Shown here in pieces: positions 287-64,000 of a DNA stretch of 64,000 nucleotides. The stretch spans positions 17,088,916 through 17,152,915 of the forward strand of contig NC_135258.1 of assembly GCF_964204865.1 (NCBI RefSeq). Direction: 5' to 3'. Numbering within the stretch: the stretch's first letter is position 1; each line of letters starts with the position of its first letter. This DNA comes from Styela clava (lineage: Eukaryota). The position numbers and the translations under genes are program-made. The notes under the pieces were generated by a model that saw only the letters and a list, made by a program, of their open reading frames with translations, searched no databases and was not told where the DNA came from.

Positions 287-780
287 CTGAAAAACAAAAA
301 TGCTATGGCAATAAAAAAAAGTTTTATTACTATTTATTTTATTATTTATTATTTATAAAAAGTTTTAAATCATATCGTTCGAATCAAATCGTGAACGATA
401 TAAGTCGATTTCAAAGTCTCTCTATATCTAGACCTCCATTTATTTCAAAAAAATCCGTGGATTCTATGGAAATCGTTTTCGACTTTAAAGGTTTGTGTGA
501 TGATGTCTTCTAAAAAATTGTAATTAGCGCCTCATGCGGCGGTTCCGCTATGGCTAATTAGCGAACCGGATCAGCGAAATCAGAATAAGAAAGATTGTGG
601 GTACCCCAAAAAATTTGATACTACTCTGTTTTGGCCTTCGTTTTGATATATTTAAGTATTGATTTCTTGTTTAAACAAAATATTGAATAGTCTCCGACAA
701 GCTTGCGTCTTGCGAATTGCACTCAAATTTTTAAAATCTGAATACTACATTGGGAAGCCGCATTGGCAATAAATTCTTAC

Positions 781-1018
781 CCCTGTCCCCGGCCAGTATA
801 TTTGGAATAGTGAGGGATTTGAAGTCTACACGGCCACTTTCGATATCATCTTTCCTTGCAAATACTCGATCGAGAAATATCCCGTCGAAAGTTCGATTCA
901 AAGCTTTTGACACATGTGGAGTTGCATAAAAAAGGCTTAATATGTTGTCCGGTACATTCAGGGCCTGTTCAACAAAAATATCCGTGTTATCGTAGGTTAC
1001 CAAAACCAATATTTTCGA
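781..1018 (-). CDS. EEP phosphodiesterase internal exon (SKILVLVTYDNTDIFVEQ...RTFDGIFLDRVFARKDD...ILAGDR)
   Basis: Acceptor cgatgcag|TCG (AG 1019-1020) and donor G|GTAAGA (GT 779-780). Phase 0 in, phase 1 out. The FDGIFLDRVF motif resembles the F-D-R-I-F motif of TDP2-like EEP enzymes. Confidence 0.6.
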
Positions 1019-1562
1019 CTGCATCGAATGAATAAATCCGATAGTTACATTACAGTTAGGATAAATGAAGCATAGAGTTTTTATCGGTATTTAGAATTGA
1101 TGAAATATACTACATGACTGATGGCAACAGATGTAAAAAAATGTAAAGGTTTTATTTATTTTCCGAACATCAAAATTACGTTAGAAAATCAGAGAAGCTT
1201 TTTATTACAAAAACATTTTGCTGTAAATAATATATATATATATTGACTATCTGCAATACAATTACCATAAAGTGCCAATACTGATGTGTTTATATATTTT
1301 AGATGTAAATTAAAACAACATTGACAACTCAAAATACAGAAGTTTTATCAAATGTCAAAATAACGTTTTATGGATAATTGGAGAATGTTACAAATGTAAA
1401 ATTATTATAAATAAGTAATTTAAATTCCTCATTTTTGGCCTCGACAAAAGCTTTTGGGCAAATGTAGTCATTGACTTTGAGTAATGAATGACCTATTCAA
1501 ATCACTCTATATATCATAGCTTACGCTATTCTAAAATAGGATCGCGAAATATATAAACTTAC

Positions 1563-1721
1563 GGTTTTTGCGTCGACATATCCTAGGGAAGTAAGGTATT
1601 GCCATGCCGGATATCCGGTATCAGTGTTGAAATCTCCGGACAAAAATGTCAATGGTTTACCGTGTAAATTTTTCTCATGTTCATTGTATTGTTTTGTTAC
1701 CCATTCTACCATGCGATGTAC
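1563..1721 (-). CDS. EEP phosphodiesterase internal exon (VHRMVEWVTKQYNEHEKNLHGKPLTFLSGDFNTDTGYPAWQYLTSLGYVDAKT), carrying the GDFN catalytic motif
   Basis: Acceptor ttgttttag|GTA (AG 1722-1723). Donor ACC|GTAAGT (RC of plus 1558-1562 cttac). 159 nt, phase 0-0. Confidence 0.75.
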
Positions 1722-1813
1722 CTAAAACAAACATACAAAGGAGGCTTCAGAAAATTGAAAAAGAGAGAGCGAGAGAGAGAGGGATGGTGGGTAGAGAGAT
1801 GGAAAAAACTTAC

Positions 1814-2035
1814 TTGTCTTCTCCTGAGCAACGCATCTTTTAGTTCTGCATTGTGTTGTAAATGACAATTCATTACGGTTATTGGTGGCCCAATCAACGA
1901 TTCCTTTTGATGTGACATTTTTTTCATTCTAAATACCACTCCTAAAGCAAAATTTTTGTTATCAGAAAGAAGAACTTCTTCCGCTGATAATACCACAAAT
2001 TTACTCCTTTTGTAAAACGTTGATATTCCATTTTT
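1814..2035 (-). CDS. EEP phosphodiesterase internal exon (KNGISTFYKRSKFVVLSAEEVLL...GPPITVMNCHLQHNAELKDALLRRRQ), carrying the NxH motif
   Basis: Acceptor tattttcag|AAA (AG 2036-2037). Donor CAA|GTAAGT (RC of plus 1808-1813 acttac). 222 nt, phase 0-0. Confidence 0.75.
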
Positions 2036-2796
2036 CTGAAAATAATTTTTGCATTTTATTTTTATAATCTTATTCGCTTCATCGTTACCAACTGGGCGAA
2101 ATATTTACGCCAATTAAAGCAGACTTATCACATTTGTTTTCATATATACCAAAAACCAATGATGTTTCGTTACAGCCGAAATTGAAAAAACACAGAAAGA
2201 TATTTACAACAATTCAAATTTATCCGCTGGTAAATATCAAATTTATTATAAGTAAAAATAAATAGAATTACATCTATTTGCGAAACTATTTGCGCATTTA
2301 TATAAAACCTAAATATAAATCAAACAAAAATTATCATCATACGAACCACGTAGGTATCACTGCGTTCCACATATTCTTTCCAGTGTTCTTTTCCGTGCGC
2401 TGTGTGAGGTATTTCTGAATATACATCACGGATTGCTCTGGAAATAATTCTGTGAGTGTCATCTTGTGTCTGGATGGATATAAGAAGTTGAAAGTGCAAG
2501 TCAAAATTTGGTTGCAAAGATGTAGAATGTACACGTTTTCCGTAAATTGTTACTCAATAATCCGAAACATTCACCAAGAAATCAAAACTTTTTTTCTGGT
2601 ATTGGATGTTTACAGCGCTTATACAATGTGCAAAATATACTAGAAGTATTGTGAGTCCAACTTGAACAAAAAAAAGACGGATCTGTAATTAAAATTATGA
2701 CATATTTTCCTAAAGTGTATTTGACACAGAGGCAATTTTTTCAGTACCAAGAGATTAGCCAACATACTCAACTTCCCATATTTGCCCGGTACTCAC

Positions 2797-2979
2797 TTCT
2801 TGCAAGGTAACAATGTCAGCATCAATTCTTAATATTTCATGAGCAATCAGCTTCAATCTCATGTTAATATCAAGAAGATTCATGTCTACAATCCCAGTCT
2901 TTTTCAATTTTTCTTCTTCTACCCAAATTGGTGCCAGAACGTTCCACGTTAATATAGAGATTTCGTCTACCTTGTTCAA
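2797..2979 (-). CDS. EEP phosphodiesterase internal exon (NKVDEISILTWNVLAPIWVEEE...RIDADIVTLQE), with WNxLA and catalytic-Glu LQE motifs. It is preceded by an acceptor site, so a 5' exon exists upstream.
   Basis: In-frame upstream sequence is tcttttcatatatatttcag|TTG, with a TGA stop just upstream in frame, so this is an internal exon. Donor GAA|GTGAGT (RC of plus 2791-2796 actcac). 183 nt. Confidence 0.7.
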
Positions 2980-5900
2980 CTGAAATATATATGAAAAGAG
3001 TCATTTTCAACTAGTCTAGGCTCTCTAGAAGAATGGTTCTCAAACTTTTTGGGTGCCCTCTTAAGAAATTGCCATGCCACATTAAAATAACTAGCTAACA
3101 ATAAGCTGGAAAGACGAACGTAGTTTTCTTCAAAACATAGGTAAACATCTAAAATAAAGAAATGTAAATATCCCTAATAAGGCGGGCAAGATCAAATCTA
3201 ACAAACATTTTTCATTTTTAATTGGCTTCCCGCCATCTAAAAAATTTTCTGCGCCATCTCTAAAAATTTGTATGCCCCACCACTTGAGAATCACCGCAAT
3301 CGAATGACGGAGCATAATATGATAAATGGAAGATCGGAACGCTCTCTATATATTATTTCATATTACATGGAAATGTGACGTCATATTACTCGTTTTCAGT
3401 CGCGAGGAGTATAGGGCAATTTTTATATTCTGAAGAACAAGAAGTCTCCCTTGTCTTAGACTTTATCTTGTAACGATAGTGTGCACTTAACTGGGTGATA
3501 GAATTACAAAATATTTAAACATAGGTATTCACGCTGGACTCAAATCATAAGCGTTTTAGAGTGTTAGCCCACGTGACTTCTCTGCAGAAGCCGATCTTGT
3601 GCATATTCTGGTTTTGAGAAAAATTTCACCTAATACCGTCTTCATACGAAGCAAAAAGGTCTAATTGGGGCCTTTTGACGGGTAGTTTAACACATTTTTA
3701 TGGCTTATATAGCAAGTAACCCTGTTTAACCCTAAAACGATTGTAGGGTGATCAACTATATTTTGAATGTCGTGCATTCGGGCAACTACAAATTGATTTG
3801 TCGGGTATTCGACCATGGGGTATCCAATGGAATTGGTGTACGAGTGTACGGTCACTTCCATTACTGAAATTCTTTTTGTCGGTTAAGGTCTAAATGGAAG
3901 CGCCTTCAGATATCTGGACCTATCGTGTTTTATAATTGGTACACCGGATTCTTTCCGACGTGCACAGATGACTAAACTAATGGCCGAAGCTGTTGAAGAA
4001 AGTCGATATCCAATGGCATACTTTTAACTTAATTCTACCTTGTCGTCGTTTAACCACTTATAGGCGTGTGAACATAAAACTAGTAGGAAACTAGTAAAAA
4101 TAGTAGGAAATTTAGTATAATTTTGTAATAATATTTCACTCACTTCGATATTTTTCATGTAATGCGATGACCCATAAGCAAGCAGCATCAGTAGTTGAAA
4201 TCTAAACACGAAATTGTAAACTATAATTGCTATCTTCCAGTATTTTATATCATATAACAAGTTGTTAAATATGAAATTCATATTAACATATAACCCTTAT
4301 TATAGCGCACTGTTTGAAACAAGTTGCTTGGACAAGATAACATTGCATCCCACAAGTGAAAAGCGACAAGGCACGCTGCAGATTTGATCACTGATGTCTG
4401 AGAGAAAATACGATTTTTTGCTCAGCATGTTCACTTCTTTGTACTTAGTTATTTCTGACGTAACGACGCGTTTTGTTCCACTTTCTGGTGTAATGCATAA
4501 CCCATACTCTCGGAAAATATGTGTGGAGCACTATATAGAAAATATTCTAAAAATGCTTCGCAGCGTTCTATGAATATTTTTTAGTATTTTAAAGATTTTA
4601 GTTTACATTTTCCCACTTCCGAACTGTTTGAATAAATTTAAGGTAATATCTAACCCTGACGTTATTGTTGAATATGTGCCAAATGACTTACCTATCTTTG
4701 TTGTTATTGTTTAGCGGTAGCCTCAATGCTTTAGAACGTTTCGATTCATACTTGAAAAAAAAAAAATTTAGTTAACTATGGTTATTACAACTTTTAAATA
4801 TAAACAAATATTCTGATATTTGAACTACCTTTAATCCGCAGACGATATAACTCATCCAAACTATAACAACAGATATCACTGAAAACCTAAAGTTAGAAAC
4901 AAAACAAAATGACGTTAATTTTTGGACCACATTCTAAGTTTATTTTATTGAACTTTTTTTAAAAAGTTTTTAAAGCAACTTTTAATTCAGTTTTCGTAAA
5001 AAAGAAAATTGAGCATATTCTACATCTACATTTTTCTACTTATTTCAGAACATCCCAAAAGTGATCAAAAGATATTGCCAAATTTACCCTTCCAAACAAA
5101 ACAAAATTGAATAAAAAAAATTTCTGGAATATTCAATTTGAAGCTCGTTTCAAATACTCTTACCTCATGCTTTCTGCGCCACAGTTTGCCAGACGTCGCC
5201 AATCTACTCTAATTATATTTAATTAGTACTGTTTATATTAGAACAATTTTCTGCTCTTCTAAATATGAACTATGACACGTTCTAATGAGTGCCTAGCGGC
5301 GAACGTAGATGGATTTGGAAATTACCAAAAACAGAACGCCGTCATTTGTCAATTTTAAAGGATTCTCACGATTAGCATAATGGTATAAAACTGGAACAAG
5401 ACTGAAATTTTAATCACTCATTTCAACTTCCATTTATCTTATACTTAAGTTTCATTTAATACACATCATGCTCTAGAAAATATGTAGACTTCAATCTTTT
5501 GATAATAAATTTATTCTCTCTAACTTATGGTAAAATAAATTTATCTTTCGATCAAAATAGCACGTTTATAGTTATCGATTTTTATCGAAAATTCCGCTGT
5601 CGTTCGTATGCACTTACAGCGCCATTACAACAATACAGTGGGTGTAGTCTCAGTTATTTATATCCGGATGTTGTAATCTAAAGTAATTCGTATTGAGTCA
5701 ATATAACGAGCATGGACACTTCCATTTAGCGATTCATCACTACAATATTATTTTTCAATCATTTCATTTCAATTATTTTTGAACATTTTGCCCAGTTTTG
5801 ATAACAAGTGGATATAAAATGTTTGCAATGCTAACAATATAATGATAGGACCTATGGCAAGTTGTTAAAGTGTTAAAAATTATCATCTTTCACTTAAAAT

Positions 5901-7873
5901 CAAGTTTTAAGAAGCAAATTTCTTTTCGGGCCCATCTATAGTTTACCTTTACTTTAATCGCCATACGGTTTGACTTATCAGAAGTTATCAGAGCAGACTC
6001 GATTGCAAGTACTCATTTTAATATTTCTCCTTTCTGTTGAACTAAGATGTGAAAGTATTTTCGAAATCTTCACACTTTAAAAATATACCTCACATCAACT
6101 TTAGACCCCAGCACTCCCATGTAAATGAGTTAGTTATCTTGAGCGATTTCCCTATTTTATACAGATACGATAATTCTTGACACTATTGATTCGTGAAACA
6201 CAGCTCCGCCTATACTACAGCAACACTATTCATTATGATATTCTAAACCTATGCTGACAGTCAAAATATTTATGTTCATCTTGAGATTCATATTTTCATT
6301 CAAAGTAATAATATTAAATCCGATAAAACGAGAGAGAAGAGAAATAGTAGAGAAACAGAAAAAATCACGAAGAGCTACAGAGATAACTTTGAAAGAGTAT
6401 TCAACAAATGCAATTTTTCATGGAAAAAACATTCAAATTCTTTTAAAACCCAATTGTAATTAAAACGTATTAAACAGCATCAACGTGCGAACTGTAGAAT
6501 ATATTGCGCATTTTTCTGTTTCGTAATATAGTAGCAAAATGAAAAAAATGCACAGATATTTATAGTTTTATGTCGATTTCGATCAAGATAGGCAAATGAT
6601 CTGATCCCATTCGAAAAACACGATTGACATTCGTATCATATTCTGATCCATCTTTCGATATTTCATATAAATTTGAGAAGGATGCAGATTTCAGGCGAAA
6701 ACTGATTACATTGGTATATCCCAGGAGTGAGCAACATTTTTTAGTATAAGAGCCGCATACCGCAAAACAGAAACATGTGAGAGCCGCATAATTTTTGAAA
6801 TTAATAATACTGTATCAGAATACCGTGAAGTGAAAAGAACTTTACACAAACGTATAATGACAATATTGCAAAGTGTATATTCTTCAAACGATTAATGAAT
6901 TAAAAAAACAAAAAATTGTTACGCTACAGTTTCTTTTAGTTTGAATAATATATAATTATTGCCAGCGAGAAGAGCCGCATAAAAACTCCGGCAGGCCGCA
7001 TGTGTCTCGCGGGCCGCGGTTTGCCTACCGTTGGTGTATCCTCTAACTCGACTTCGATGTAGTTTTCTTTATCTAAAAATATTAAATTGAAAATAAAATA
7101 TTTGACTTCAAGTATGAAATTAGGTTTATTGATTTGTTAGGTATTTCAATTTGTCATACAATTTTAGCCATTATGTTTATGGAAATGGAAAGAGGTATTT
7201 ACATATTAGTTTAAATTAAATCACCAATAATTGTTGTATCATTATTTATTCAATGTTCAACTGAAAAGTTTATAAAAACAAATATGCAAATAGATATAAA
7301 TCTTACTTAGAAGATCAGATTTAATATCAGGTATCACGACGGATAAAATTTTGATTAATTCATTTGTCATGTCCGACCCACGTATGAATGTATGATCAAT
7401 AGGAATTTCAGTTCAAACTCCCAAACCAGGAATAAGAAATGGTACGGGATAGAAAAATGTATCCTTTCCAGTTCCAGACTCCTATGAAATACAAAAAGAT
7501 AACTTGTCACATGCTACTCAAGAAAATAAATTTAAAATTATCAACTTAAATTCAATAATATGTTCTCTTTCGAAATGTTAGTAATTTCTCCGGTTTGTTC
7601 AAGAATTATCAGTTTATATAAATATCAATACCAATTGAATTTCATGTTTTGATTCCTTGCATACTTATTATTGCTCTAATTTTTATGATATGTTTTTTAT
7701 TCTAATAACAATTTCCAGTTAATTGTCAAATATGACATGTATGGCAGATTGACCAGGGCGAGCTTCCATTATGTTTTAGATTGATACACTGGTAATTGTT
7801 TTAAATGGAATATTAATTAATATATTGTTACATTTGTATCCGAGACGGTATTACATAGACTCAATTGACTCAC

Positions 7874-12400: not shown

Positions 12401-14234
12401 GGCGAGTTACGAGCTGCCGGGGTGTACGGAATGACCAATTTATATATGATCTGCTGCCTGTTCTCCTTTACAAATCTAATTTCACAATAGAACAAATGTA
12501 CCACCAAACATTTTCTAGAATGGTCAAAAGTGAACTTGCCCTTCGGCACAAAATTCTGTGCATTCACGTATTTTACAACTTGCTTGTTAAAATTATTTAA
12601 TTTGCCTGAAGCAACTTATTTATCAAATGTTATCGGTATTTATGAAGAACTAACTACTCATGAAAAGCTGAGTTTTCGTTGCGATATTTTTGGAAAAAGT
12701 CGTTTCTTATTATATAGATAATAGAAAATAGTAAAAATATTATTGACAAATAGACGAGGCTTTCCATCCAGTTATTCGATGGCATGGGAATATTTCATGC
12801 AAACTTGAATGACGCGGATCTGGAAAAACAGAATTTTATATTTTTAAGTTCTATTTAATTTTTACTCTTTTTTATTTAGGTATAAATCCTTGCGCACACC
12901 GCTCAAAATTGAGGTTAGTAACGATAATTTTATCTAATATGGCACATCGTCATGATGTTATTGCACTGCAAAACAGAATAGTATTTAATCAGAAACAACG
13001 CGATGATAATGTTTCTAAAATTGGCCGATTCTAATAATCCAACTCTCGAAAAATCGGGTTGGATATTTCAGCTGAGATTATACAGATATTACACTATAAA
13101 GCCTCTTAAATTCGTAAGTTTGACTATGCTTTTGTGCTGTCGTTACGAAAAAGCTGTAGCCTACGCTGCATCTAGTATCGACGTTAGCCTGGGATTCTAT
13201 TAAGTGTACCCCAATAAATTTAAATAGAACCCTTACAGTGTCTGTTGTATGTATGAGAGTGTGAGGGCATGGGCTACAAAAACCTTACTAAATTAGTATT
13301 GTAAAATATTTATTAATCATTAAAAAAAACTGAGAAATGCAATGACTTTTGGATTCGGGCTCCATTGGACTCCAATGGAGCTCTAAAAGAAGTTTCGTTT
13401 GGTCGCGTGGTTATAAAGAACGTGATTTCCACAACAACCTCAACAGGAACAACAATTTAGCAGTTCGATCTATACAGGTTCACCTCGTGCCTTAACAGGA
13501 CATGAGACTGTTTTTTACACAGTTGCCAGTAATGCAATCACAACAGATCTTGCCACGTGTTTTGAATTGGGGCTAAACATCTTTTGAGCAAAAATATTTG
13601 AAATAATCACATGCTTAGTCTCGAGGCTAAATTGTTTGCCCGTCTTTCACAATGAAAGAATGCGCCCTGATTACATGCTGCAATATCGGGCCATACTCGA
13701 TTTTGCGCAAATATTATAATAAATTTCAGCTGGGCAGTACTATCGCGTGATCTACCCGACCCAAATCAAAGTGTGCGTGTTGCAAGACCTAATATTTGGG
13801 TTAATATTTAATTGAGCTATGACTATAACGCGAACTAAATACACACAGAACTATGATGTGAATGATATTCATTCAGCTACAGACTACGGATACATATCGG
13901 AAATGTGATAAGAACCTGCGCACGACTTTCTATATTTCTTATTAGAATATGACAGAGTAAATTTGCTCTCAAAGCGTCTGTAGGTGACAATGCAGCATGT
14001 TGAAACGTAGAACAATTTCACCTAATATACTTGTCAAATACATAAGCAAATACTAAACCCTTGTGTTGTATCAGCGCATGACGCAAACGTTTTTAGTTGT
14101 AATTCTTACAGAGTACGATGTACAATAACGTTTTATTCTGTATTTACTTGTTAATATTAGAAAGTGCCCTGTTTTATACCGTTTGTATTTTGACAGATCA
14201 ATCGCTGTTTTTATAGGTTAGTTCAAAGCTCAAA

Positions 14235-15656
14235 ATGAACAAGAAAATTGTGGTTCGAAATATCTGCATGGGACTATTTTTCTTCTTCAGCGGAGTAGAA
14301 TATGCTGTGATTTTACCGACTTTGAATGGATATCTTATAACGTTCGATGCAAAACAGAGCTTTTTAGGACTCGTCTTGGCTGCATTCAGCTTCTCTGGAA
14401 TGATATCTGCTCCCATTTACGGTATAATCGCAGACAAAACAAGATCGACAAAATTGTGTGTTATCGTTGCAAATTGTTTTGAAATATTGGGTAATATCCT
14501 ATACTTTACTAGTACAAATGAGTACATGGTGTTAGGTGCAAGACTTATTGCCGGAATTGGTTCAGGCGCAGCTTCATCTATATTTGGCATGATAGCCAGG
14601 ACAACTACACCTGAAGAGCGTACGAGCGTGTTTTCACTCCTTATGTCATTGCGACAGATAGGAATGATAGTGGGACCAGCGTTTAATATATTTCTACACG
14701 TTTTGGACTTTTATATTGGAAAGTTTCATATCAACGAGTATACATCTCCTGGATTTTTGATGACTATAATATGGTTTCTTCATAGTGTCTTATTGATAAT
14801 TGTGTATAAAGACGAAGATGAGAAAAGGCAAAAGATAGAAGAAACGCCGACTGTTGATGGAGTGGTTGAAATATCTGGCGATGGAGCAACGGGAGTTCGT
14901 GAGGAAGTCAGAACGAAACGTGCACCCTCAATGCTTGAGAATAAGAAAGTCAAGAGTTTTGTAAATGAATTCCTTCGAGAAGAAATTGTCATCTGCCTGT
15001 TTGCTACTTTCTTTGTCATGTTTGCTCAAACGGGCCTGGAAACTGCTGCAGCACCAATGACCCTGCTGTTTTTTGGTTGGGGCGGATTAGAAAATAGTTA
15101 CTTATTTTGCGCCGGGTCTGTAGTCGTAGTTTCCAGTTTTGTAGCTTTGAGCTTTTTAAGTAAAAAATTCTCGGATCGGCAACTAGTACTATTCGGATGT
15201 ATTGGTATGATAGCTACATATATCATGTATTTTGTTTACTCAGCTGTTCTGTCGTACGCAGAAAAATACGATGGTAACCCGAAAGATTGTCCAACATGGC
15301 TACTTCCAGTTTTTGCCATAAATATAACAATGCTGACCATTGCGGTGCCTTTTCTCTGGGTTCCACAAGCATCGCTATTTTCGAAAATTACCAGTAAAGA
15401 AACTCAGGCTTTTAACCAAGGAGTAAGAATGGTGACATTACGCATGGGTCAAATTATCGGTCCCATATGGGCTTCCCCTATGACAACAATAGATAGAATG
15501 CCTATTATGCTTGCCGTAGATTTATTTCTTACATGTATGCTGACTACAATGGTTTACCTCTCATACAATCGACTTCAACCATTAGAAGATTTACCAAAAT
15601 TGGATCAAAGCGAGGATGAAGAAAAAACTCCGTTATTGGGGGCAATAAACGACTGA
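14235..15656 (+). CDS. MFSD8: Major facilitator superfamily transporter, MFSD8/CLN7-like, 473 aa, apparently single-exon
   Basis: Uninterrupted 1422-nt ORF. About 12 hydrophobic segments. MFS motif A in loop 2-3 (GIIADKTRSTK). Long acidic central loop. Local similarity to MFSD8 blocks as recalled from memory (SFLG..V.A.S.G....P..G..., YM.....L.GIG.G, ERTS, IN.YT.P motif). The TATA-like tttttatagg sits about 20 nt upstream of the ATG. The MFSD8 assignment rests on memory, not a search. Confidence 0.8.
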   Translation: MNKKIVVRNICMGLFFFFSGVEYAVILPTLNGYLITFDAKQSFLGLVLAAFSFSGMISAPIYGIIADKTRSTKLCVIVANCFEILGNILYFTSTNEYMVLGARLIAGIGSGAASSIFGMIARTTTPEERTSVFSLLMSLRQIGMIVGPAFNIFLHVLDFYIGKFHINEYTSPGFLMTIIWFLHSVLLIIVYKDEDEKRQKIEETPTVDGVVEISGDGATGVREEVRTKRAPSMLENKKVKSFVNEFLREEIVICLFATFFVMFAQTGLETAAAPMTLLFFGWGGLENSYLFCAGSVVVVSSFVALSFLSKKFSDRQLVLFGCIGMIATYIMYFVYSAVLSYAEKYDGNPKDCPTWLLPVFAINITMLTIAVPFLWVPQASLFSKITSKETQAFNQGVRMVTLRMGQIIGPIWASPMTTIDRMPIMLAVDLFLTCMLTTMVYLSYNRLQPLEDLPKLDQSEDEEKTPLLGAIND

Positions 15657-16439
15657 TATGTAGCGATATTCTATTTTGCGTTACATCATATGGTCTTAGA
15701 ATTTTTGTCAGTAAGTTTTCGCACCAAACTGCGAATACTCTGTTTTACCACCTCTATGCAATAACAACCTTTTACTCGATTTTTTCCGCTTAAAATTTTC
15801 GTAAGCTTAATTTCGGTTTACCTTTTCGATGGTCAAAATTACATTTTGTTAAGTCTAAAAGTACTATTACGTGTATTTGCTGCCCAACATTCTGGTTGGG
15901 GCTTCTCGTACTTATGAAACGTTGTAGAAGTGCAACATTTCTGCATTGTCGTTACTTTAATTACATCATCCAATTTTAGCAAGTGAAGAATGAATTAATG
16001 TCTTATCATTATTACTCTTTTCTAATTCAGTTGTTTTAATTGTGAACGTTTTGTTTTTATCCAATCCTATTTAAATTGAGCTTACTTACTACAATATGTC
16101 TCACTGGGAATTTTTTAACAATCTTTCAGCTACAATTTTTTATACGCCATTCCATTTATTTATATGCCAACAGCCAGAAATGTCCAAATTTAAGGGTCAT
16201 AAAACGATTCCAGATTTTTTCTATGTATTTACTGTGATATTTTGATATATTATTGTTGAAAATGTGCAATATTTTTTAAATAAGTTGGCTGGTACTTGAG
16301 CATTTTGCAATAATGAAAAAATACATATGACAATAGTCCTTCTTTTACTTTTGGGTTATTCATACCGTTTAATATTGATGTATAATATCAACAAAAAGCA
16401 TATATCACGAGCATATGACTTCTCAAAATTAATCAGATC

Positions 16440-20000: not shown

Positions 20001-20487
20001 TGAATAATTGATTCATATCAATCTGTCCTATGGATATGATTTGGTTTAGTCAATAAGGCAATAAAATAGATGGAATAATGCTTGACGATTTTTGATCCTC
20101 CTTTATCACAATGTATTCAAATTACAATTTAGAAAATTTTAGACTCTTTTCAAGCCCCTGCGACATCTCCAGCAAACCTAGGGGACTAATCAGGGTTTTG
20201 TTTTTTAATATTTCTGAAAAAACATCTCGTGTAATGTAAGTAAAAATTCTTGTTTTGACTTTTACTATTATCGCGTACATTTATCGCCAAGTTTGTACCT
20301 ACACCAAAGTCATAAGATTTTAACAGGAATGTTTATCGGAGATATCAGAGAGCCCTTTCGTGCAAGAAAAATATCTCACGAGCCTACTACAATCCAAAAG
20401 TAATTGGATCAAGGCCGCCTTCGACAACGAGTGTGTTGCCATAATGAAGAATATTCTTAGGTCGGCAACCTGCGGATTTAGTTAGAC

Positions 20488-21301: not shown

Positions 21302-24300
21302 AGTTAGACGATGAGACACACTGGCCTAGGCTATGCTTTTGTAATACCTCTCTGATACAATGACGTCACAACTAATCTGTTATAACGTCATAATAGAGAT
21401 TTCGAGTTTATTTATTAGCACTTTTTCCATACAAATTAAGTCATTATTTCTGTTAATACTGTTCGGTTAATTTAAATTAGCATACTTTGTTTTTAAGGTG
21501 AAAGGAATAGAGTTTTTCAAAGTTATACAAACTCATTTATTTAACGTATTTCCATTTTCGCCAGGTGGTTTACAGGGCGGTTTCGTCGCAGGGTGGTTTA
21601 CAAACGACTTATCTGCGCCAACCACGTTCGCGGACGCATTGAGCTATAGCCTGAGAAGGCGTATATGGTCAAGTCATCGATATTTGTGGCATTTCGAAGA
21701 GTTTATTGCGAATACGAAGTGCTTGGAAGGTTTTGAAATCCATTTTTCTTTAACATATTCAAGAAAAAAAATAATAAAAAACCTCGATTTAAAACAATTC
21801 TCTTTGAACAAATCCCAAGTAATAATCAACGAATCGGTATAAATGTATTTAATTCTTCGGATAAATGAAAATAATAATCTTTTTAACCTTAGTCACATGC
21901 AAAACTTTTTCATAGTCGAGTAGTCGTGTCATATTATTAAGACAATTGTGCCGTGTTGTTAGCTGACTGGTGTAAACATCATAAACTGCGTGAACGACTT
22001 GTTCGGTATATTCTTATAAAACAATAGTTTGTAGCTGGGCACGATATGTAGAAACTTGTAATGTTCTTTGTCATGTTAGTCAGCAATGTAGTGTATTTTA
22101 ATTGAGCCATATTTTTATATAATTTATTTGAGCCTTGCTCTCTTGTTACGGAGTCTCTCTTTGATCCATAAAAAGGTGAACTGGATAAAATGAAAAATTG
22201 TGGGCAGATATCGTTAATAAATACTGATTACAAAATCCTAACGAAGAAATTAGCGATTAGTTTGAAATATCTTTTACGAAATATAATATATATATAAATT
22301 GCATATTTGCCATTTTACAACCGACCGTTATAAATATATTCAATGGGTGCATTGGCTTTAACATAATTTTGGTAATTTTGAATCATGAGCCACCACGTAC
22401 TATTTTTACCAGTCGGTTTTGGCGTGCTCATTTCAAACTGATTTCATAAGAAGAGACGGGTGAAAGAATTAATTGCAGTGCACATGGATTCTCTCAGGGT
22501 CGCCATATTAGTAGCATAAGATACTATTTACCTCTGGAAAGAGGAAATCTAATAACAATGATTAACGTATTGCAAACCATGTCAAGTCAATCAGTACATT
22601 TGTGATCATGACCATTCCAATATATTGTATTCGAAATTCATATAATGTGAAAATTGTGGTAAAGTGTACGTAATTATATCAGGAAAAGCTAAAACATCAT
22701 CAATTTACAACTTTACTCGAAGAATATAAACCAGCACATGGACGTATTTTTTTAATCAGTTGGTAATCTTGGGGATAATACAGGCCTTGGCATTCAGTTT
22801 CCGAGATAAATATAGCGATGAGTACATGTTAAGTCTGTTACTCGTAAAAGCTCATAAAATGATTAGGGTGCTCGCCGTACATGGAGTTTGTGCATTCCTT
22901 CTATATGCAGTCAGAGCAAAGAGTGTGTGTTTGTATAAGCAAATTTACTGAAAGCAAGGATACGCGCATCGCTCAAAAATATAAAATAATGATCTCTGAG
23001 CAAAGTTACAGGAGGCAAATGAAGTTGAGAGAGCTTGTGATACTTTAAATAATCATGGCGTAGAAATAAGAATTGTTATTCGTTAGGACTGCTACACGAA
23101 ATAAAAACTTCATCACAAAACTTAGATTTTGAAATGTTTGTTTGTTGAATACAAAATTTATCACGAATGTAAAATTCGAATTATTCGTTTGCTGAATATG
23201 GAAATATTTACAAAATCTCGAATTTTAAATCTTTGATTACCGAATATGAGATATAATCTGCACAGCTATTTGCAAATTTACGAAATTTCTTTTCTGCACT
23301 TGTTTCAGTCCTATACATCGTTCAAAAGAATATGAGACAAAATAGGCATATGGTTTGCATTGTAGTGTTGGGAGTGACGGTGTCGTAGCAATTGTGTTCA
23401 TCAGACAGTGGGTAAAAATTACTAATCGAGTACGCTGTGAACAATCAAATGGAGATAAACAAGAGATCTATGTTCAAATATATGGGCACGTGGCGCCACA
23501 TAGCGATTGGTCCAGTAATCAAAGCGAATTTTTTCTGTTACAAAGAACAACAACAACATAATAATAAATAATACAGAATGCAGCCAGGCACAATGAATAC
23601 GACGGCAAAATAAATGACAAGAAAAAGTAAACACTTAAAAGGTGGTAATCACGCCCTAACGGTCTAGATCAGTGTTCTTCAACCTTTTTTTAGTGTGGTA
23701 TACTTTTTACATATTTGCAAGAACTTTAAGCAGATTGTGAAATAAACTAAAACTGCCATACTGCAATGTCACCATGAAATCTAATAGGCTACTGTCCGCG
23801 AGTTTTAAACGGTGTACATTTGACTGACGGCCCGATCATCAACGGAAATAATGTTCAACGTAAATCAAGCAAAAAAAAGTCGGTGATTGGACAACAATTT
23901 TGATTTTTAAGTTTACCGCAGACAATACTTTCCATTGAAGTTACACTTTAATTACTCATTGTATTTGTAGATGTGTTAACAACTAATTCATTTCACCATT
24001 TTAACCCAATTTTCTTAAATGTGTGATAATTATGATAGAAATACATTCGGTCATTATCGATTGTTTGAGCAAAAATTCATTTCATCTCAAAAGTATTCCA
24101 AGATATTAGGAGGAAGTAAAAATCTACCACGGAGGGTTAATTCATACCTCAGAAAGAATACCTAAGTTCATAATATGCACTATTTTTTACGGCGATCAAC
24201 GAGATCCGTCAAAGATTTTAGGCTAGAGCGAAATGTTATCAGGAAAACATGTTTCTGCCTGGGCCCGAACCACTTTATGGGGATCGTTTGCAAACGCGAC

Positions 24301-38000: not shown

Positions 38001-39294
38001 CTAATATTTAAATATTCACTCCAGCTTACCATATTAAGATTTTGTGGCAACGCTTCCAAATGGCCAAAAACTTAATATGGATACGCATTATCGCGATAGT
38101 TACCTTATGGGCAGGCTTGTCCATGGGAACGTCCCATGGGATGGGACACTACACATTTGTATTTTACGTGGGACACGAAATCAGTATGATTTTCGGGAAA
38201 ATGGTAGTAAAAAATTCATTATGGATTCCGTGTTCATATATTTGAGCATAGCCCTCTTGTTAGGTATAAAGAGCAAAACATATACACTATACAGCATCAA
38301 CAATATACTTCGTGAAGGGGCTGACACATAGATATGAATATAAAGTTAACAAAGTCCGTAAATGTTGTTGTTTTGCATGTCTCTTCTTACATGTAGTTCT
38401 ATTTATTAGACGCTAAACCTAAATTTAACAATTTTTATTGAATTTTATTACAATGGGAATCCCATGGGATGGGATGGGAATGGGACAAAAAAACATGATC
38501 CAAGGACAGGCCTGCTTATGTCTATATTTATTAGCATGTGTCGCATAATCATATATTGTTATTTATTTTGTTAAATTCATTTTGAAACTGATTTGTTTTT
38601 TCCAATCGTGTGAATTATACTTGTAAGTTGTATATCTATCAACAAATATTATTGGTAATTTTTCGGGAAACCTGCAGACAGAGTATTATTTTTATTATAT
38701 TAAGTATAAACTCAGCTTTGGTTTGTCTGTCAAAAGAAATTTTCTATGGAAAACCCCCAAAATACTTTATAATATCATGATTCGCACAACTATCGTTTTT
38801 TTCTGGCTAATAAGCGAATAAGACAAGAATAAATTTTAGCAATATAAAATTGTGTTTTTGTCATATTACTGCCCAATATTCGAGTTAAAATTTGCATTAC
38901 TTTGTTCCAAATTTTGTCAGATTTTTGTCATTCCTGAGAAGGAACTTTTTCCTTTGTGTTTGCAGTAATGATGTTAGTTTAGACACCAAAGCACTCTCAT
39001 AGTTTTATATGGCAAAGTCTTTAGAACCGGACCCGTGTTCATTTCTACGTCGGCATGAAACTTAATATTCTACTCCAAAAAACTGACCGTAATTTAGCAT
39101 TAAAAAGGTATCAGCAATTATTCACTGGGACAATGGTTTTCAAACGATGGGGCGCGCCTTGTAAAATGGGCGTAGAAATTTTTGAGGGAGGATGTAGATA
39201 ATTAAATCTATTTTTTGTTTGTTGGAATGGCATTTTTTGGATATTTACATTAATTCTTAAACATGGCAACTCATTTCTATGTATAATGAATTAA

Positions 39295-42224: not shown

Positions 42225-43045
42225 CGACTTATACTTCCGTTGGTAGTCCCAGTAATCAATAACCATACGTTTCATGTTGATATGTGTTCAAAGCTGGCAA
42301 TCCTTGTTACTCCCAGTAATCATACAATTCATGTTGATACGTGTTCGAACCCGCAATCTTTGGTAGTCCAAGTAACCATACAATTCATATTCATAAGTGT
42401 TCAAAGCTGGCAATTCTTGGTAGTCCTAGAAACCACGCGTTTCATATTGATAAGTGTTCGAAGCTGGCAATATTTGGTAATCCAAGTAACCATACAATTC
42501 ATATTGAAAAGTGTTCGAAGCTGGCAATCCTTGGTAGTCCAAGTAACCATACGATTCATATTGATAAGTGTTCGAAGCTGGCAATCCTTGGTAGTCCAAG
42601 TAACCATACAGTTCATATTAATAAGTGTTCGAAGCTGGCAATCTTTGGTAATCCAAGTAACCATACAATTCATATTGATAAGTGTTCGAAGCTGGCAATT
42701 CATGGTAGTCCAAGTAACCATACGATTCATATTGATAAGTGTTCGAAGCTGGCAATTCATGGTAGTCCAAGTAACCATACAATTCATATTGATAAGTGTT
42801 CGAAGCTGGCAATTCATGGTAGTCCAAGTAACCATACGATTCATATTGATAAGTGTTCGAAGCTGGCAATCCTTGATAGTCCAAGTAACCATACAGTTCA
42901 TATTGATAAGTGTTTAAAGCTGGCAATTCTTGTTAGTCCAAGTAACCTTACTATTCATATTGATAAGTGTTAGAAGCAAGTAATCCTTGGTAGTCACTGT
43001 AATCATATGTTTCATGTTGATAAGTGTTCGAAGCTGGCAATATTC
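42225..43045. repeat. Minisatellite, 57-bp unit (aagctggcaatccttggtagtccaagtaaccatacaattcatattgataagtgttcg), about 14 tandem copies
   Basis: The motif aagctggcaa recurs at 57-bp spacing (42461, 42518, and so on through 43031). Degenerate relatives of the unit flank the array (41980-42200, 43230-43480, 40340). Confidence 0.9.
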
Positions 43046-48789: not shown

Positions 48790-51700
48790 AATTCTTACGA
48801 TTTACGTTATTCTTATATTTTTATTGCTGTTATTATATGTTACTGATTTGTGAATTATATTATTGTTTATTACTGATATTGTATATTTTAATGAGCTTTT
48901 TTGTAATATGCAGTTTCCATATCTTATTTATATCTATCTTATTTGCTGTAGTCATTATTTTCTATTGTATTTTTTGAGATATTTTCAACAGGAAAACAAG
49001 ATATCGTGCCAACGACAATGGAAGAAAAGTATTAACAGGGCTTGCCATAGCTTTTTTTGAATATTTTTTCATTGTAGATAGATTTAGACCCATCCCCGCC
49101 ATTAGGAATAATAGGGATTTTATTAGGCTTAGATATTTTTAATGTTATTCTAGCTTCTCAGGCACAGAACTATGAAGACACTGGAAAAATCAAGAAAATA
49201 CGAATAGAAGGAAAATCTACAAATTACATGTAAATATTTTTTAAATTTTAGGAGACTTAGGTATTTTTAATGGTATTCTAGCTTCTCAGGCCCAGAATTA
49301 TGAAGAAGTGAGAAAACGACTGATACAAGGAAACAATGAAGAAATTAAGAGAAAACTGAAACAAGGAAAATCTACAAATTGAATGTAAATATTTTTTACA
49401 AATTTTATTAGGCTTAGATATTGTTAATAATATTTTAGCTTCTCAGGCACAGAATTTTAAAGGTACTGAAGAAATTGAAAGAAGACGGAGCCAGAGACAA
49501 ATACCGGTAAATATGTTACATTTGTTTCATTAGGCAGACTTACTATTTCCATTTAGTGTTCATTTCCATTTTAATTCGATATAATATTTTTCTGATTATA
49601 TTATTACTGACACAATAATGCACAAAGTATTATGTTTATTGCTGGCATTCAATATTTATTTAATAAAGCTTTTTTTAGTAATATGCTGTATCCATACTTA
49701 CCTATCTTATTTGTTATAATCAATATTTTCTCTTCTATTTTTGAGATATTTTCAACTGGAAACGATATCGTGACACCAACAAAAGAAGAAAAGTATTAAC
49801 AGGGCTCGCTATGGCTTTTTTGTTTTTAATATTTTATTTGTTATAGATAGATTAGTCCCAATCCCTCCATTAAAAATAATAGGGTTTTTAATAGGCTTAG
49901 ATATTTTTAATGTTATTCCAGCTTCTCAGGCACACAACTATGAAGACGCTGGAAAAATCAAGAAAAGACGAATAGAAGGAAAATCTACAAATTACATGTA
50001 ACCATTTTTCGAATTTTATGTGGCTTAGATATTTTTAATGGTATTCTAGATTCTCAGGCACAGAATTATGAAGAAGTAAGAAAAAAGACTGATACAAGGA
50101 AACAACGAAGAAATTAGGAAAAAACTGAAACAAGGAAAATCTACAAATTGAATGTAAATATTTTTACAAATTTTATTAGGCTTAGATATTGTTAATAATA
50201 TTTTAGCTTCTCAGACACAGAATTTAAAAGGTACTGAAGAAATTGAAAGAAGACGGAATCAGAGACAAATACCGGAAAATTTGTTACATTTGTTTCATTA
50301 GACAGACTTACTATTTCCATTTAGTGTTCATTTCCATTTTAATTCGATATAATATTTTAGATAGGGCTTAGATTTAGGCTTAGATATATTTAATGTTATT
50401 CTAGTTTCTCAGGCACACAACTATGAAGACACTGGAAAAATCAAGAGAAGACGAATAGAAGGAAAATCTACAAATTACATGTAAATATTTTTCGAATTTT
50501 ATGAGGCTTAGGTCTTTTTAATGGTAATCTAGCTTCTCAGGCACAGAATTATGAAGAAGTAAGTAAAAAGACTGATACAAGGAAACAATGAAGAAATTAG
50601 GAAAGAACTGAAACAAGGAAAATCTACAAATTGAATGTAAATATTTTTACAAATTTTATTAGGCTTTGATATTGTTAATAATATTTTAGCTTCTCAGGCA
50701 CAGAATTTTAAAGGTACTGAAGTAATTGAAAGAAGACGGAACCAGAGACAAATACAGGTAAATATGTTACATTTGTTTCATTAGGCAGACTTACTACTTC
50801 CATTTAGTGTTCTTTTCCATTTTAATTCGATATAATATTTTTCTGATTATATTATTACTGATGCAATAATGCACCAGGTATTATGTTTATTGCTGGCATT
50901 CCATATTTATTAAGAAAGCTTTTTTTGGTAATATGCTGTATCCATACTTACCTATCTTCTTTGTTATAATCAATATTTTCTCTTCTATTTTTGAGATATT
51001 TTCAACTGGAAACGATATCGTGACACCAACAAAAGAAGAAAAGTATTAACACGGCTCGCCATGGCTTTTTTGTTTTTAATATTTTATTTGTTATAGATAG
51101 AATAGTCCCAATCCCTTCATTAGGAATAATAGGGTTTTTAATAGGCTTAGATATTTTTAATGTTATTCTGGCATCTCAGGCACACAACTATGAAGACACT
51201 GGAAAAATCAAGAAAAGACGAATAGAAGGAAAATCTACAAATTACATGTATGAGGCTTAGATCTTTTAAATGGTAATCTAGCTTCTCGGGCACAGAATTA
51301 TGAAGAAGTAAATGAAAAGACTTATACAAGGAAACAATGAAGAAATTAGGAAAAGACTGAAACAAGGAAAATCTACAAATTGAATGTAAATATTTTTACA
51401 AATTTTATTAGGCTTTGATGTTGCTAATATTTTCTTAGCTTCTCAGGCACAGAATTTTGAAGGCACTGAAGAAATTGAAAGAGGACGAAACCAGAGACAG
51501 ATCTAAAATACCGGTAAATTTGTTCCATTAGGCAGGCTGACTTTTTCCATTTAGTGTTCATTTTGATTTTATTTCGATATAATATTTTTCTAATTATATT
51601 ATTACTGATACAATAATGCACCAAGTATTATATTTATTGCTGGCATTTAATATTCATTAATAAAGCTTTTTAGTAGTATGCTGTATCCATACTTGCCTAT

Positions 51701-63700: not shown

Positions 63701-64000
63701 TTACATTTGTTCCATTAGGCAGGCTGACTTTTTCCATTTAGTGTTCATTTTGATTTTATTTCGATATAATATTTTTCTAATTATATTATTACTGATACAA
63801 TAATGCACCAAGTATTATGTTTATTGCTGGCATTTAATATTTATTAATAAAGCTTTTTAGTAGTATGCTGTATCCATACTTGCCTATCTTATTTGTTAAA
63901 ATGAATATTTTCTCTTCTATTTTTGAGATATTTTCAACTGGAAACGATATCGTGACACCAACAAAAGAAGAAAAGTATTAACAGGGCTCGCCATGGATTT
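48790..64000. repeat. Complex satellite / tandem array, about 20 monomers of roughly 735-775 bp, continuing past the window end. Each monomer is three related 110-130-bp sub-repeats (core gcttctcaggcaca[gc]aa[ct]t) plus a roughly 390-bp unique segment.
   Basis: The marker ctcgccatgg recurs at 49803, 51056, 51790, 52566, 53310, 54073, 54838, 55589, 56345, 57118, 57888, 58641, 59405, 60175, 60925, 61691, 62464, 63236 and 63987. Two monomer body types differ by a 17-bp indel (acatgtaaatatttttcgaattttatgagg versus acatgtatgagg). The first two monomers (48790-51050) are more diverged, and one carries an internal ABC duplication. Confidence 0.92.

What the first reader, a model, noticed from the sequence alone, without database searches (positions are those of the whole stretch)
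14235..15656. Intronless MFSD8/CLN7-like transporter with a C-terminal acidic dileucine motif: a possible retrogene
The 473-aa MFS ORF is uninterrupted, while the nearby EEP gene in the same window has at least four introns, and vertebrate MFSD8 is multi-exonic. So this copy may be a processed retrocopy that stayed intact. Alternatively, an in-frame stop 21 nt upstream of the ATG shows the true N-terminus lacks the N-terminal cytosolic tail, where CLN7 carries its lysosomal dileucine signal. Instead the C-terminus ends ...DQSEDEEKTPLLGAIND, which fits the [DE]xxxL[LI] sorting consensus (EKTPLL). That suggests lysosomal or endosomal targeting through a relocated signal.
Basis: partly seen in the sequence, partly recalled or inferred. 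Interest (0 to 1): 0.6.

Follow-up and report, generated by a model that had tools for sequence, protein, structure and literature searches.

The report
Old intronless MFSD8-like transporter gene
This is an intact sea-squirt (Styela clava) membrane-transporter gene from the MFSD8-like sister family of the Batten-disease gene CLN7; it lost all its ancestral introns long ago, probably through an RNA copy, and its C-terminal sorting motif is an ancient family feature, so the finding is real but fairly ordinary.

Summary
Window 14235-15656 (+) is an uninterrupted 473-aa MFS ORF in Styela clava, with an in-frame TAG 21 nt upstream and a C-terminal EKTPLL.

- Family: the protein is not a CLN7 orthologue. 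It belongs to the MFSD8-like (mfsd8l1-type) sister family (456 bits on that HMM, 257 on canonical MFSD8; 25% identity to human CLN7).
- Intron loss: this is real and complete. Ciona and Clavelina homologues have 8 introns at positions and phases shared with a coral (8/8) and a brachiopod (7/8). The Styela gene has none.
- Age: this is not a young retrocopy. All seven checked genes of the Styela-type group (the window gene plus six on four contigs from three sequencing runs, some in tandem) are also single-ORF. They are 42-62% identical, with saturated synonymous sites and pN well below pS. There is no poly-A remnant or target-site duplication. One old reverse-transcriptase-mediated event followed by duplication fits best.
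- Sorting motif: it is not relocated. [DE]xxxL[LI] occurs in the C-tail of 32/41 non-vertebrate family members, cnidarians to tunicates. The short N-terminus is also family-wide.

RefSeq's 501/503-aa models bridge the stop codon through non-consensus donors and are doubtful. Interest is low to moderate.

The parts
14235..15656 (+). Complete single-exon coding sequence (473 aa plus TGA) of an MFSD8-like MFS transporter
   Evidence: ORF list. Pfam MFS_1 at 1.3e-34. 100% identity to RefSeq XP_077972707.1. AF2 model with 12 TM helices, pLDDT 87.9. Scores 456 bits on the L-family HMM and 257 on the canonical MFSD8 HMM.
14214..14216 (+). In-frame TAG 21 nt upstream of the ATG, which bounds the N-terminus
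   Evidence: Read. The six-frame fragment begins at 14217. The N-terminal length (19 aa before G-V-E-Y) equals the family median of about 21.
15621..15638 (+). EKTPLL (aa 463-468), an acidic dileucine [DE]xxxL[LI] motif in the disordered C-terminal tail
   Evidence: Sequence. The tail from about aa 451 has low AF2 confidence: block-mean pLDDT 67, 48 and 40 for aa 451-473, with 461-464 and 468-473 below 50. The motif is present in 32/41 non-vertebrate family members against a shuffle mean of 4.1.
14181..14198 (+). Pyrimidine-rich tract ending in AG, 37 nt upstream of the ATG. It could be a 5'-UTR intron acceptor or a trans-splice acceptor (inference only).
   Evidence: Read (ccgtttgtattttgacag|atcaatcg). 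No transcript data were available.
20241..20274 (+). First small downstream exon used in the RefSeq models (KILVLTFTIIA). Probably not part of the true CDS.
   Evidence: It joins the ORF only through non-consensus donors (AC at 15649-50 or GA at 15655-56). Its similarity to CLN7 is not above background.
21592..21649 (+). Second downstream exon of the RefSeq models (VVYKRLICANHVRGRIEL*). It resembles the extreme C-terminus of vertebrate CLN7. Its status is unresolved.
   Evidence: It is the best six-frame match in the whole window to the human CLN7 C-terminal 18-mer (score 39, next best 24). A GT(20275-76)/AG(21590-91) intron links it to the previous exon.

Best explanation
The ORF is a functional, single-coding-exon member of the MFSD8-like (MFSD8L, mfsd8l1-type) branch of the major facilitator superfamily. 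It is one of at least seven paralogues in Styela clava.

Its ancestor lost all eight introns that tunicate MFSD8L genes inherited from the metazoan ancestor. The loss most probably happened in one step through a reverse-transcribed mRNA, either by retroposition or by gene conversion with a cDNA. This occurred early in the Styela-type lineage. The intronless gene then multiplied, giving tandem pairs in some species and copies dispersed over several chromosomes in Styela. The window gene therefore inherited its intronless state and is not itself a fresh retrocopy.

The protein is a 12-helix transporter with both ends in the cytosol. Its disordered C-terminal tail carries the family's ancestral ExxPLL acidic dileucine motif. 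By analogy with the N-terminal EQEPLL of CLN7, this motif most likely binds AP adaptor complexes and directs the protein to endosomes and lysosomes, or drives its internalisation.

Shown: gene structure, family placement, intron homology, motif conservation, fold and purifying selection. Inferred: the reverse-transcriptase mechanism, the timing, adaptor binding and localisation. The substrate is unknown.
For: - Family placement. The top hits are tunicate 'MFSD8-like' proteins, then fish mfsd8l1 (37-38% identity). BLASTP gives 25% identity to human CLN7 and 38% to fish mfsd8l1. The ORF scores 456 bits on an L-family HMM built without tunicates and 257 bits on the canonical HMM, and 0/150 canonical representatives prefer the L HMM.
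- Introns. Exact splice maps give 9 coding exons in Ciona and Clavelina, with 8 introns at identical positions and phases. All 8 coincide in column and phase with Stylophora introns, and 7/8 with Lingula. The Styela ORF is continuous across all of them.
- Shared single-exon state. Full-length single ORFs occur on L003, L004 (two in tandem, next to split RNase_PH and zf-CHY/zinc-ribbon exons, so the contig is genomic), L005 (two in tandem) and L006.
- Phylogeny. WIN+P0002-4 is supported 183/200 and the tunicate clade 178/200. No Styela paralogue groups with the Ciona/Clavelina gene.
- Selection and age. pN is 0.24-0.27 against pS 0.80-0.85, which is saturated.
- Dispersal. Styela paralogues lie on contigs of five different lengths, 21.4-24.9 Mb.
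- Genome background. S. clava has long introns and fewer intron-less genes than Ciona (PMC7540406).
- Motif. 32/41 non-vertebrate members carry it, against a shuffle mean of 4.1 and maximum of 11. The tail around it has low AF2 confidence.
- Precedent. The CLN7 N-terminal dileucine is required for lysosomal targeting (PMC8673761).
Against: - Monophyly of the Styela plus single-ORF group is only weakly supported (97/200).
- The gene structures of the other Styela paralogues could not be read, because the Styela genome is not in the contig index.
- The species behind the Logan contigs are unknown.
- There is no poly-A tract or TSD, so no direct trace of retroposition remains.
- Synteny tests were uninformative, even for Ciona against Clavelina. 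Retroposition to a new site cannot be told apart from in-situ cDNA conversion or from stepwise loss.
- No expression, localisation or adaptor-binding data exist.
- Fish members of the family lack the motif (0/56), so it is dispensable in some lineages.
Confidence: 0.65

Rival explanations
1. This is a young processed retrocopy of an intron-containing MFSD8-type parent still present in the Styela genome.
For: The coding sequence is uninterrupted while homologues in Ciona and Clavelina have 8 introns. The gene stands alone, with no paralogous exons within 64 kb.
Against: The closest relatives (55-62% identity) in other species are already single-ORF. Synonymous sites are saturated. No poly-A remnant is present and flanking direct repeats are at chance level, 5 observed against 5.5 expected. 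No Styela protein in the search is closer than 50% identity.
Confidence: 0.05
2. The eight introns were lost one by one through independent genomic deletions or partial cDNA conversions, without retroposition of a full-length mRNA.
For: Tunicates do lose introns. The Ciona/Clavelina gene already lacks 4 of the 12 Stylophora introns.
Against: The pattern is all-or-none. All seven checked genes of the Styela-type group have 0 of 8 introns, and both enterogonan genes have 8 of 8, with no intermediates.
Confidence: 0.2
3. The gene is really multi-exonic, as in RefSeq (501 or 503 aa), with two small 3' coding exons that give a CLN7-like C-terminus.
For: Two RefSeq releases model it this way. The last exon peptide is the best match in the whole window to the human CLN7 C-terminal 18-mer, scoring 39 against a next best of 24. 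A canonical GT/AG intron lies between the two small exons.
Against: The two releases use different non-consensus donors, GA and AC, and both are placed so as to skip the TGA. The ORF's own end...ExxPLL...IN[D/A], is the conserved family C-terminus, and the model would add a 13th hydrophobic segment. A canonical GT sits 4 nt after the stop (15660-61), so the small exons could be 3'-UTR exons. No other canonical MFSD8 exons are found in the window.
Confidence: 0.1
4. The ORF is a bacterial contaminant or a horizontally acquired MFS efflux pump.
For: It is intronless, and the best solved-structure matches are bacterial NorA.
Against: All close homologues are metazoan, and the gene nests within a tunicate clade. 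The flanks are AT-rich eukaryotic DNA. Bacterial promoter and terminator motifs are at chance level. NorA comes top only because no MFSD8-family structure has been solved.
Confidence: 0.01

Closest known systems
MFSD8-like proteins (fish mfsd8l1; the 'MFSD8L' group of Perland et al. 2017, PMC5627054)
   Same: Same family by HMM preference, tree and end-to-end alignment. Members share the short N-terminus with the G-V-E-Y-A-V-I-L-P-T motif in TM1 and 12 TM helices.
   Different: Fish, cnidarian, brachiopod, Ciona and Clavelina genes are multi-exonic where checked (9-13 coding exons), whereas this one has a single coding exon. Fish members lack the C-terminal ExxPLL (0/56), and this protein keeps it.
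Human MFSD8/CLN7 (lysosomal MFS protein; mutated in the CLN7 form of Batten disease (vLINCL))
   Same: It is the nearest human MFS relative (257 bits on the canonical profile). It has the same 12-TM fold and the same type of E-x-x-P-L-L acidic dileucine signal.
   Different: Identity is only 25%, and the two belong to separate ancient clades. In CLN7 the signal lies in a roughly 40-aa N-terminal tail (EQEPLL, aa 9-14). Here the N-tail is about 10 residues with no motif, and the signal is C-terminal. A shared substrate or channel activity is untested.
Functional ('orphan') retrogenes and intronless gene families derived from multi-exon ancestors
   Same: All ancestral introns are absent while the reading frame and purifying selection are maintained, and paralogues are dispersed on several chromosomes.
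   Different: No poly-A tail, TSD or identifiable intron-bearing parent was found. The event is old and was followed by DNA-level tandem duplication in relatives.

Membership tests
Major facilitator superfamily | Match to the MFS_1 profile above the curated threshold | tested here: met
   PF07690 at E=1.3e-34, 120 bits against a cut-off of 33.4.
Major facilitator superfamily | Twelve TM helices in two six-helix bundles | tested here: met
   The AF2 model has pLDDT 87.9 and pTM 0.85, with 6+6 long helices separated by a disordered loop at about aa 204-233. Foldseek top hits are all MFS transporters.
MFSD8/CLN7 orthology group | Scores better with canonical MFSD8 than with any sister family, and clusters with CLN7 | tested here: not met
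   257 bits on the canonical HMM against 456 on the L-family HMM. Human CLN7 is the most distant sequence in the tree, at d=2.04 against 1.05 for fish mfsd8l1.
MFSD8/CLN7 orthology group | Long cytosolic N-terminal tail carrying the dileucine lysosomal signal | tested here: not met
   Only 19 residues precede G-V-E-Y, there is no N-terminal motif, and an upstream in-frame stop bounds the N-terminus.
MFSD8-like (mfsd8l1-type) family | Preference for the family profile and end-to-end alignment with family members | tested here: met
   456 bits on an HMM built only from non-tunicate members, and 95-100% query coverage.
MFSD8-like (mfsd8l1-type) family | C-terminal E-x-x-P-L-L in non-vertebrate members | tested here: met
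   EKTPLL at aa 463-468. The motif is present in 32/41 non-vertebrate members.
Processed retrogene | Lacks all introns of the parental or ancestral gene | tested here: met
   0 of 8 ancestral tunicate introns, and 0 of 12 cnidarian introns.
Processed retrogene | Poly-A remnant 3' of the copy | tested here: not met
   No A-run of 8 or more in the 3.3 kb downstream. This is expected if the event is old.
Processed retrogene | Flanking target-site duplications | tested here: not met
   The longest flanking direct repeat is 11 nt. 10-mer matches number 5 against 5.5 expected.
Processed retrogene | Intron-containing parent elsewhere in the same genome, and a new genomic location | not testable with these tools
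   Styela genome loci could not be retrieved. Synteny with 4-kb flanks was uninformative.
[DE]xxxL[LI] adaptor-binding sorting signal | Consensus sequence in an accessible cytosolic segment away from the membrane | tested here: met
   EKTPLL lies about 20 residues after the end of TM12 (aa 442), in a tail of low AF2 confidence (block-mean pLDDT 40-67). A cytosolic C-terminus follows from the 12-TM MFS topology (plus established knowledge).
[DE]xxxL[LI] adaptor-binding sorting signal | Binds AP complexes, and mutating LL mislocalises the protein | not testable with these tools
   This needs an experiment.

The most novel reading that the evidence does not exclude
An 'orphan' retrogene replaced the multi-exon MFSD8L gene at the base of the Styela-type (stolidobranch) ascidians and seeded an expanded intronless family of at least seven copies in Styela. 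This particular copy lies inside, or directly upstream of the 3' end of, the true CLN7 orthologue, whose terminal exon is the CLN7-like sequence at 21592-21649. The two sister-family genes would then be physically nested or transcriptionally linked.
Probability: 0.15. Interest if true: 0.45.

Novelty: new member of a known kind. Interest (0 to 1): 0.25.

Why it matters
The result is mainly an annotation and evolution point. It is a clean, datable example of complete intron loss (8 of 8 ancestral introns) followed by family expansion in a chordate whose genome is otherwise intron-rich. It also shows that the MFSD8-like sister family of the Batten-disease gene CLN7 carries the same kind of acidic dileucine signal at the opposite end of the protein, conserved from cnidarians to tunicates. 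That could help in studying how this poorly known family is sorted. Finally, it flags that both RefSeq protein models for this gene probably have a wrong C-terminus that removes the conserved end of the protein.

Tried and rejected
- I searched the window for a multi-exon paralogue or parent, using tblastn with 101 family members, 150 canonical MFSD8 representatives and human CLN7, plus profile HMM and PSSM-segment scans against six-frame fragments with a reversed-sequence null. Nothing beyond the ORF exceeded the null. Weak hits at 3825-3884, 6948-7093, 23151-23222, 38467-39069 and 13776(-) contain stops or lack splice sites, and I treated them as noise.
- I first judged the RefSeq tail to be a protein-guided prediction artefact, because it resembles only mammalian CLN7. 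I then found that the 18-mer match is a window-wide outlier, so the matter is left unresolved rather than rejected.
- I tried to retrieve Styela paralogue loci and the window's own product from the contig index. None are on record.
- I tried to identify the species of the Logan runs through the literature and found none.
- Flank comparisons for synteny gave no signal, even in the positive control.
- RefSeq isoform pairs (P0005/P0090, P0011/P0013) told nothing about introns.
- The bacterial promoter and terminator scan was at chance level.

Full report
**Observation**

The window is AT-rich eukaryotic DNA (GC 0.28-0.40) with a single long ORF, 14235-15656 on the + strand, encoding 473 aa. An in-frame TAG lies at 14214-14216, 21 nt upstream of the ATG, and the protein ends ...DQSEDEEKTPLLGAIND. 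Pfam MFS_1 matches at E=1.3e-34. [quoted passage not shown] The window is therefore from the ascidian S. clava.

The neighbouring EEP gene is only weakly verified. One minus-strand fragment (3000-2758) hits the Exo_endo_phos N-terminus at E=6e-4, and further stop-separated fragments lie nearby.

**Family**

The best hits after the tunicate proteins are fish mfsd8l1 (37-38% identity) and 'MFSD8-like' proteins of sea urchin, brachiopod, nemertean and cnidarians. I recalled the human MFSD8/CLN7 sequence from memory and verified it as 100% identical to database protein P0102. It is only 25% identical to the ORF.

An HMM built from 70 non-tunicate members of the 'like' family scores the ORF at 456 bits. 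An HMM built from 103 canonical MFSD8 proteins (human P0102 plus 102 representatives) scores it at 257 bits. None of the 150 canonical representatives prefers the L-family HMM. In an NJ tree human CLN7 is the most distant sequence. Perland et al. had already noted 'MFSD8L' proteins that fall outside the human MFSD8 cluster (PMC5627054).

The gene is therefore a member of the MFSD8-like sister family, not a CLN7 orthologue.

**Completeness and the RefSeq C-terminus**

The two RefSeq models are 501 and 503 aa. They equal the ORF up to ...GAI or ...GAIND and then add KILVLTFTIIA and VVYKRLIC(A/V)NHVRGRIEL, encoded at 20241-20274 and 21592-21649.

The junction to the ORF would need donor AC (15649-50) in one release and GA (15655-56) in the other. 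Both are non-consensus and both are placed just so as to avoid the TGA. A canonical GT sits at 15660-61, 4 nt after the stop.

The ORF's own end matches the family pattern ExxPLL...IN[A/D] seen in most tunicate members. I conclude that the CDS ends at 15656. The two small exons are either 3'-UTR exons or belong to something else.

One point remains unexplained. The last exon's peptide is the single best six-frame match in the whole window to the human CLN7 C-terminal 18-mer (score 39, next best 24 among 127,894 positions). No other canonical MFSD8 exon can be found in the window. The 11-mer exon is not above background.

**Intron loss**

Exact splice maps show that the Ciona intestinalis and Clavelina lepadiformis homologues each have 9 coding exons, with 8 introns at identical positions and phases. 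The Stylophora gene has 12 introns and the Lingula gene 11.

On a protein alignment, all 8 tunicate introns fall in the same column and phase as Stylophora introns, and 7 of 8 as Lingula introns. They are ancestral metazoan introns. The Styela ORF runs uninterrupted through all eight positions (aa 23, 85, 173, 244, 297, 351, 391, 437).

The S. clava genome paper reports long introns and fewer intron-less genes than Ciona (PMC7540406), so this is not a genome-wide habit.

**Age and mode**

The closest relatives (P0002-P0012, 46-60% identity) lie on anonymous Logan contigs.
- L003 has a single 473-aa ORF with 5 kb of non-coding upstream flank.
- L004 has two single-ORF copies in tandem, beside split RNase_PH and zf-CHY/zinc-ribbon fragments, which makes it genomic DNA.
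- L005 has two in tandem.
- L006 has one.

All seven genes checked in the Styela-type group are therefore single-ORF.

WIN plus P0002-P0004 form a clade (183/200). All Styela paralogues fall with the single-ORF sequences rather than with the Ciona/Clavelina gene, although monophyly of that large group is weakly supported (97/200).

Synonymous differences are saturated (pS 0.76-0.85) while pN is 0.19-0.42. This shows both great age and purifying selection. Downstream of the stop there is no A-run of 8 or more, and flanking direct repeats are at chance level. Styela paralogues sit on contigs of at least five different lengths, so they are dispersed.

The all-or-none pattern argues for one reverse-transcriptase-mediated event in an early ancestor of this lineage, followed by duplication. 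Whether that event was retroposition to a new site or in-situ conversion by a cDNA cannot be decided, because synteny tests with the available 4-kb flanks gave no signal even between Ciona and Clavelina.

**The sorting motif**

[DE]xxxL[LI] occurs in the last 40 residues of 32 of 41 non-vertebrate family members: 13/16 non-chordate and 19/25 tunicate-type. Composition-matched shuffles give a mean of 4.1 and a maximum of 11. The motif occurs in 0 of 56 fish members. It is typically E-x-x-P-L-L, the same flavour as CLN7's N-terminal EQEPLL. That CLN7 signal is needed for lysosomal targeting, and LL13/14AA sends CLN7 to the plasma membrane (PMC8673761).

The short N-terminus (about 19-21 residues before G-V-E-Y) is also family-wide. 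So the signal was not relocated when the introns were lost. It is an old difference between the two sister families.

The AlphaFold model (pLDDT 87.9, pTM 0.85) shows 12 TM helices. Confidence is low in the central loop and in the C-terminal tail from about aa 451, which contains the motif. This fits an exposed linear signal on the cytosolic side. Structural neighbours are generic MFS transporters (NorA, VMAT2, SV2A, GLUTs), and no MFSD8-family structure is solved.

**Mechanism, with its status**

- Shown: an intact, conserved 12-TM MFS protein with a conserved acidic dileucine in a flexible C-tail.
- Inferred from established knowledge of [DE]xxxL[LI] signals and of CLN7: AP-adaptor-dependent sorting to endosomes and lysosomes, or endocytosis from the plasma membrane.
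- Unknown: the substrate. CLN7 has been reported as an endolysosomal chloride channel (PMC8673761), but at 25% identity this cannot be transferred.

**Verdict**

The finding is real but ordinary: a lineage-specific intronless paralogue of a known, already annotated family. The retrogene idea is right about the origin and wrong about the age. The relocation idea is wrong. The most useful by-products are the intron-homology result, the family-wide C-terminal motif and the probable error in the RefSeq C-terminus.

Noticed in passing
window 21592-21649 (+), with 20241-20274 (+): An orphan exon encodes VVYKRLICANHVRGRIEL*. It is the best six-frame match in the whole window to the extreme C-terminus of human CLN7 (11/18 identical, score 39 against a next best of 24). 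It resembles the mammalian CLN7 representatives much more than the mostly non-mammalian ones I hold. No other canonical MFSD8 exon is detectable in the window. It could be the terminal exon of the true CLN7 orthologue with a very long upstream intron, or a relic, or a 3'-UTR exon of the single-exon gene.
   Followed up: partly
window 15648-15661: The two RefSeq releases (XP_039263246.1 and XP_077972707.1) bridge the TGA stop with different non-consensus donors (GA and AC). A canonical GT lies 4 nt after the stop. The RefSeq protein C-terminus is probably wrong.
   Followed up: partly
window about 48860-64000 (runs off the end): A tandem satellite with a monomer of about 760 bp and a higher-order unit of about 1520 bp. 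Copies are 88-97% identical. It coincides with low GC (0.28-0.30) and a persistent positive GC skew.
   Followed up: partly
window 42260-43041: A 57-bp tandem repeat of 13.7 copies at 87% identity. It produces the spurious 100-225-aa ORFs on both strands at 42240-42973.
   Followed up: no
window 734-3000 (-) and 6563-6814 (-): Stop-separated fragments of an endonuclease/exonuclease/phosphatase gene. The N-terminal motif is at 3000-2758. A separate fragment at 6814-6563 ends ...GSDHLPI, which resembles an EEP C-terminus and may mean a second tandem copy.
   Followed up: partly
window about 13732-13776 (-): A stop-interrupted peptide, GRVDHAIVLPS*N..YL, resembles the family's TM1 motif GVEYAVILPTLN.YL. 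It lies about 460 bp upstream of the gene on the opposite strand. Its score (19.7) only just exceeds the null maximum (19.4), so it is either a relic of an inverted paralogue exon or chance.
   Followed up: partly
C-termini of tunicate MFSD8L proteins (P0008, P0014, P0016-P0018, P0022, P0029; window aa 470-473): Many tunicate family members end ...[ST]-I-N-A, and the window protein ends A-I-N-D. Two protist-like sequences (P0098, P0099) end ...IN. This is a second conserved C-terminal element downstream of ExxPLL, and its role is unknown.
   Followed up: no
L004 4538-9410 and L005 849-4790: Tandem pairs of single-ORF MFSD8L genes sit 1.1-2.1 kb apart on genomic contigs of unidentified species. 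The partners are only 42-56% identical, so the tandem arrangement is itself old.
   Followed up: partly
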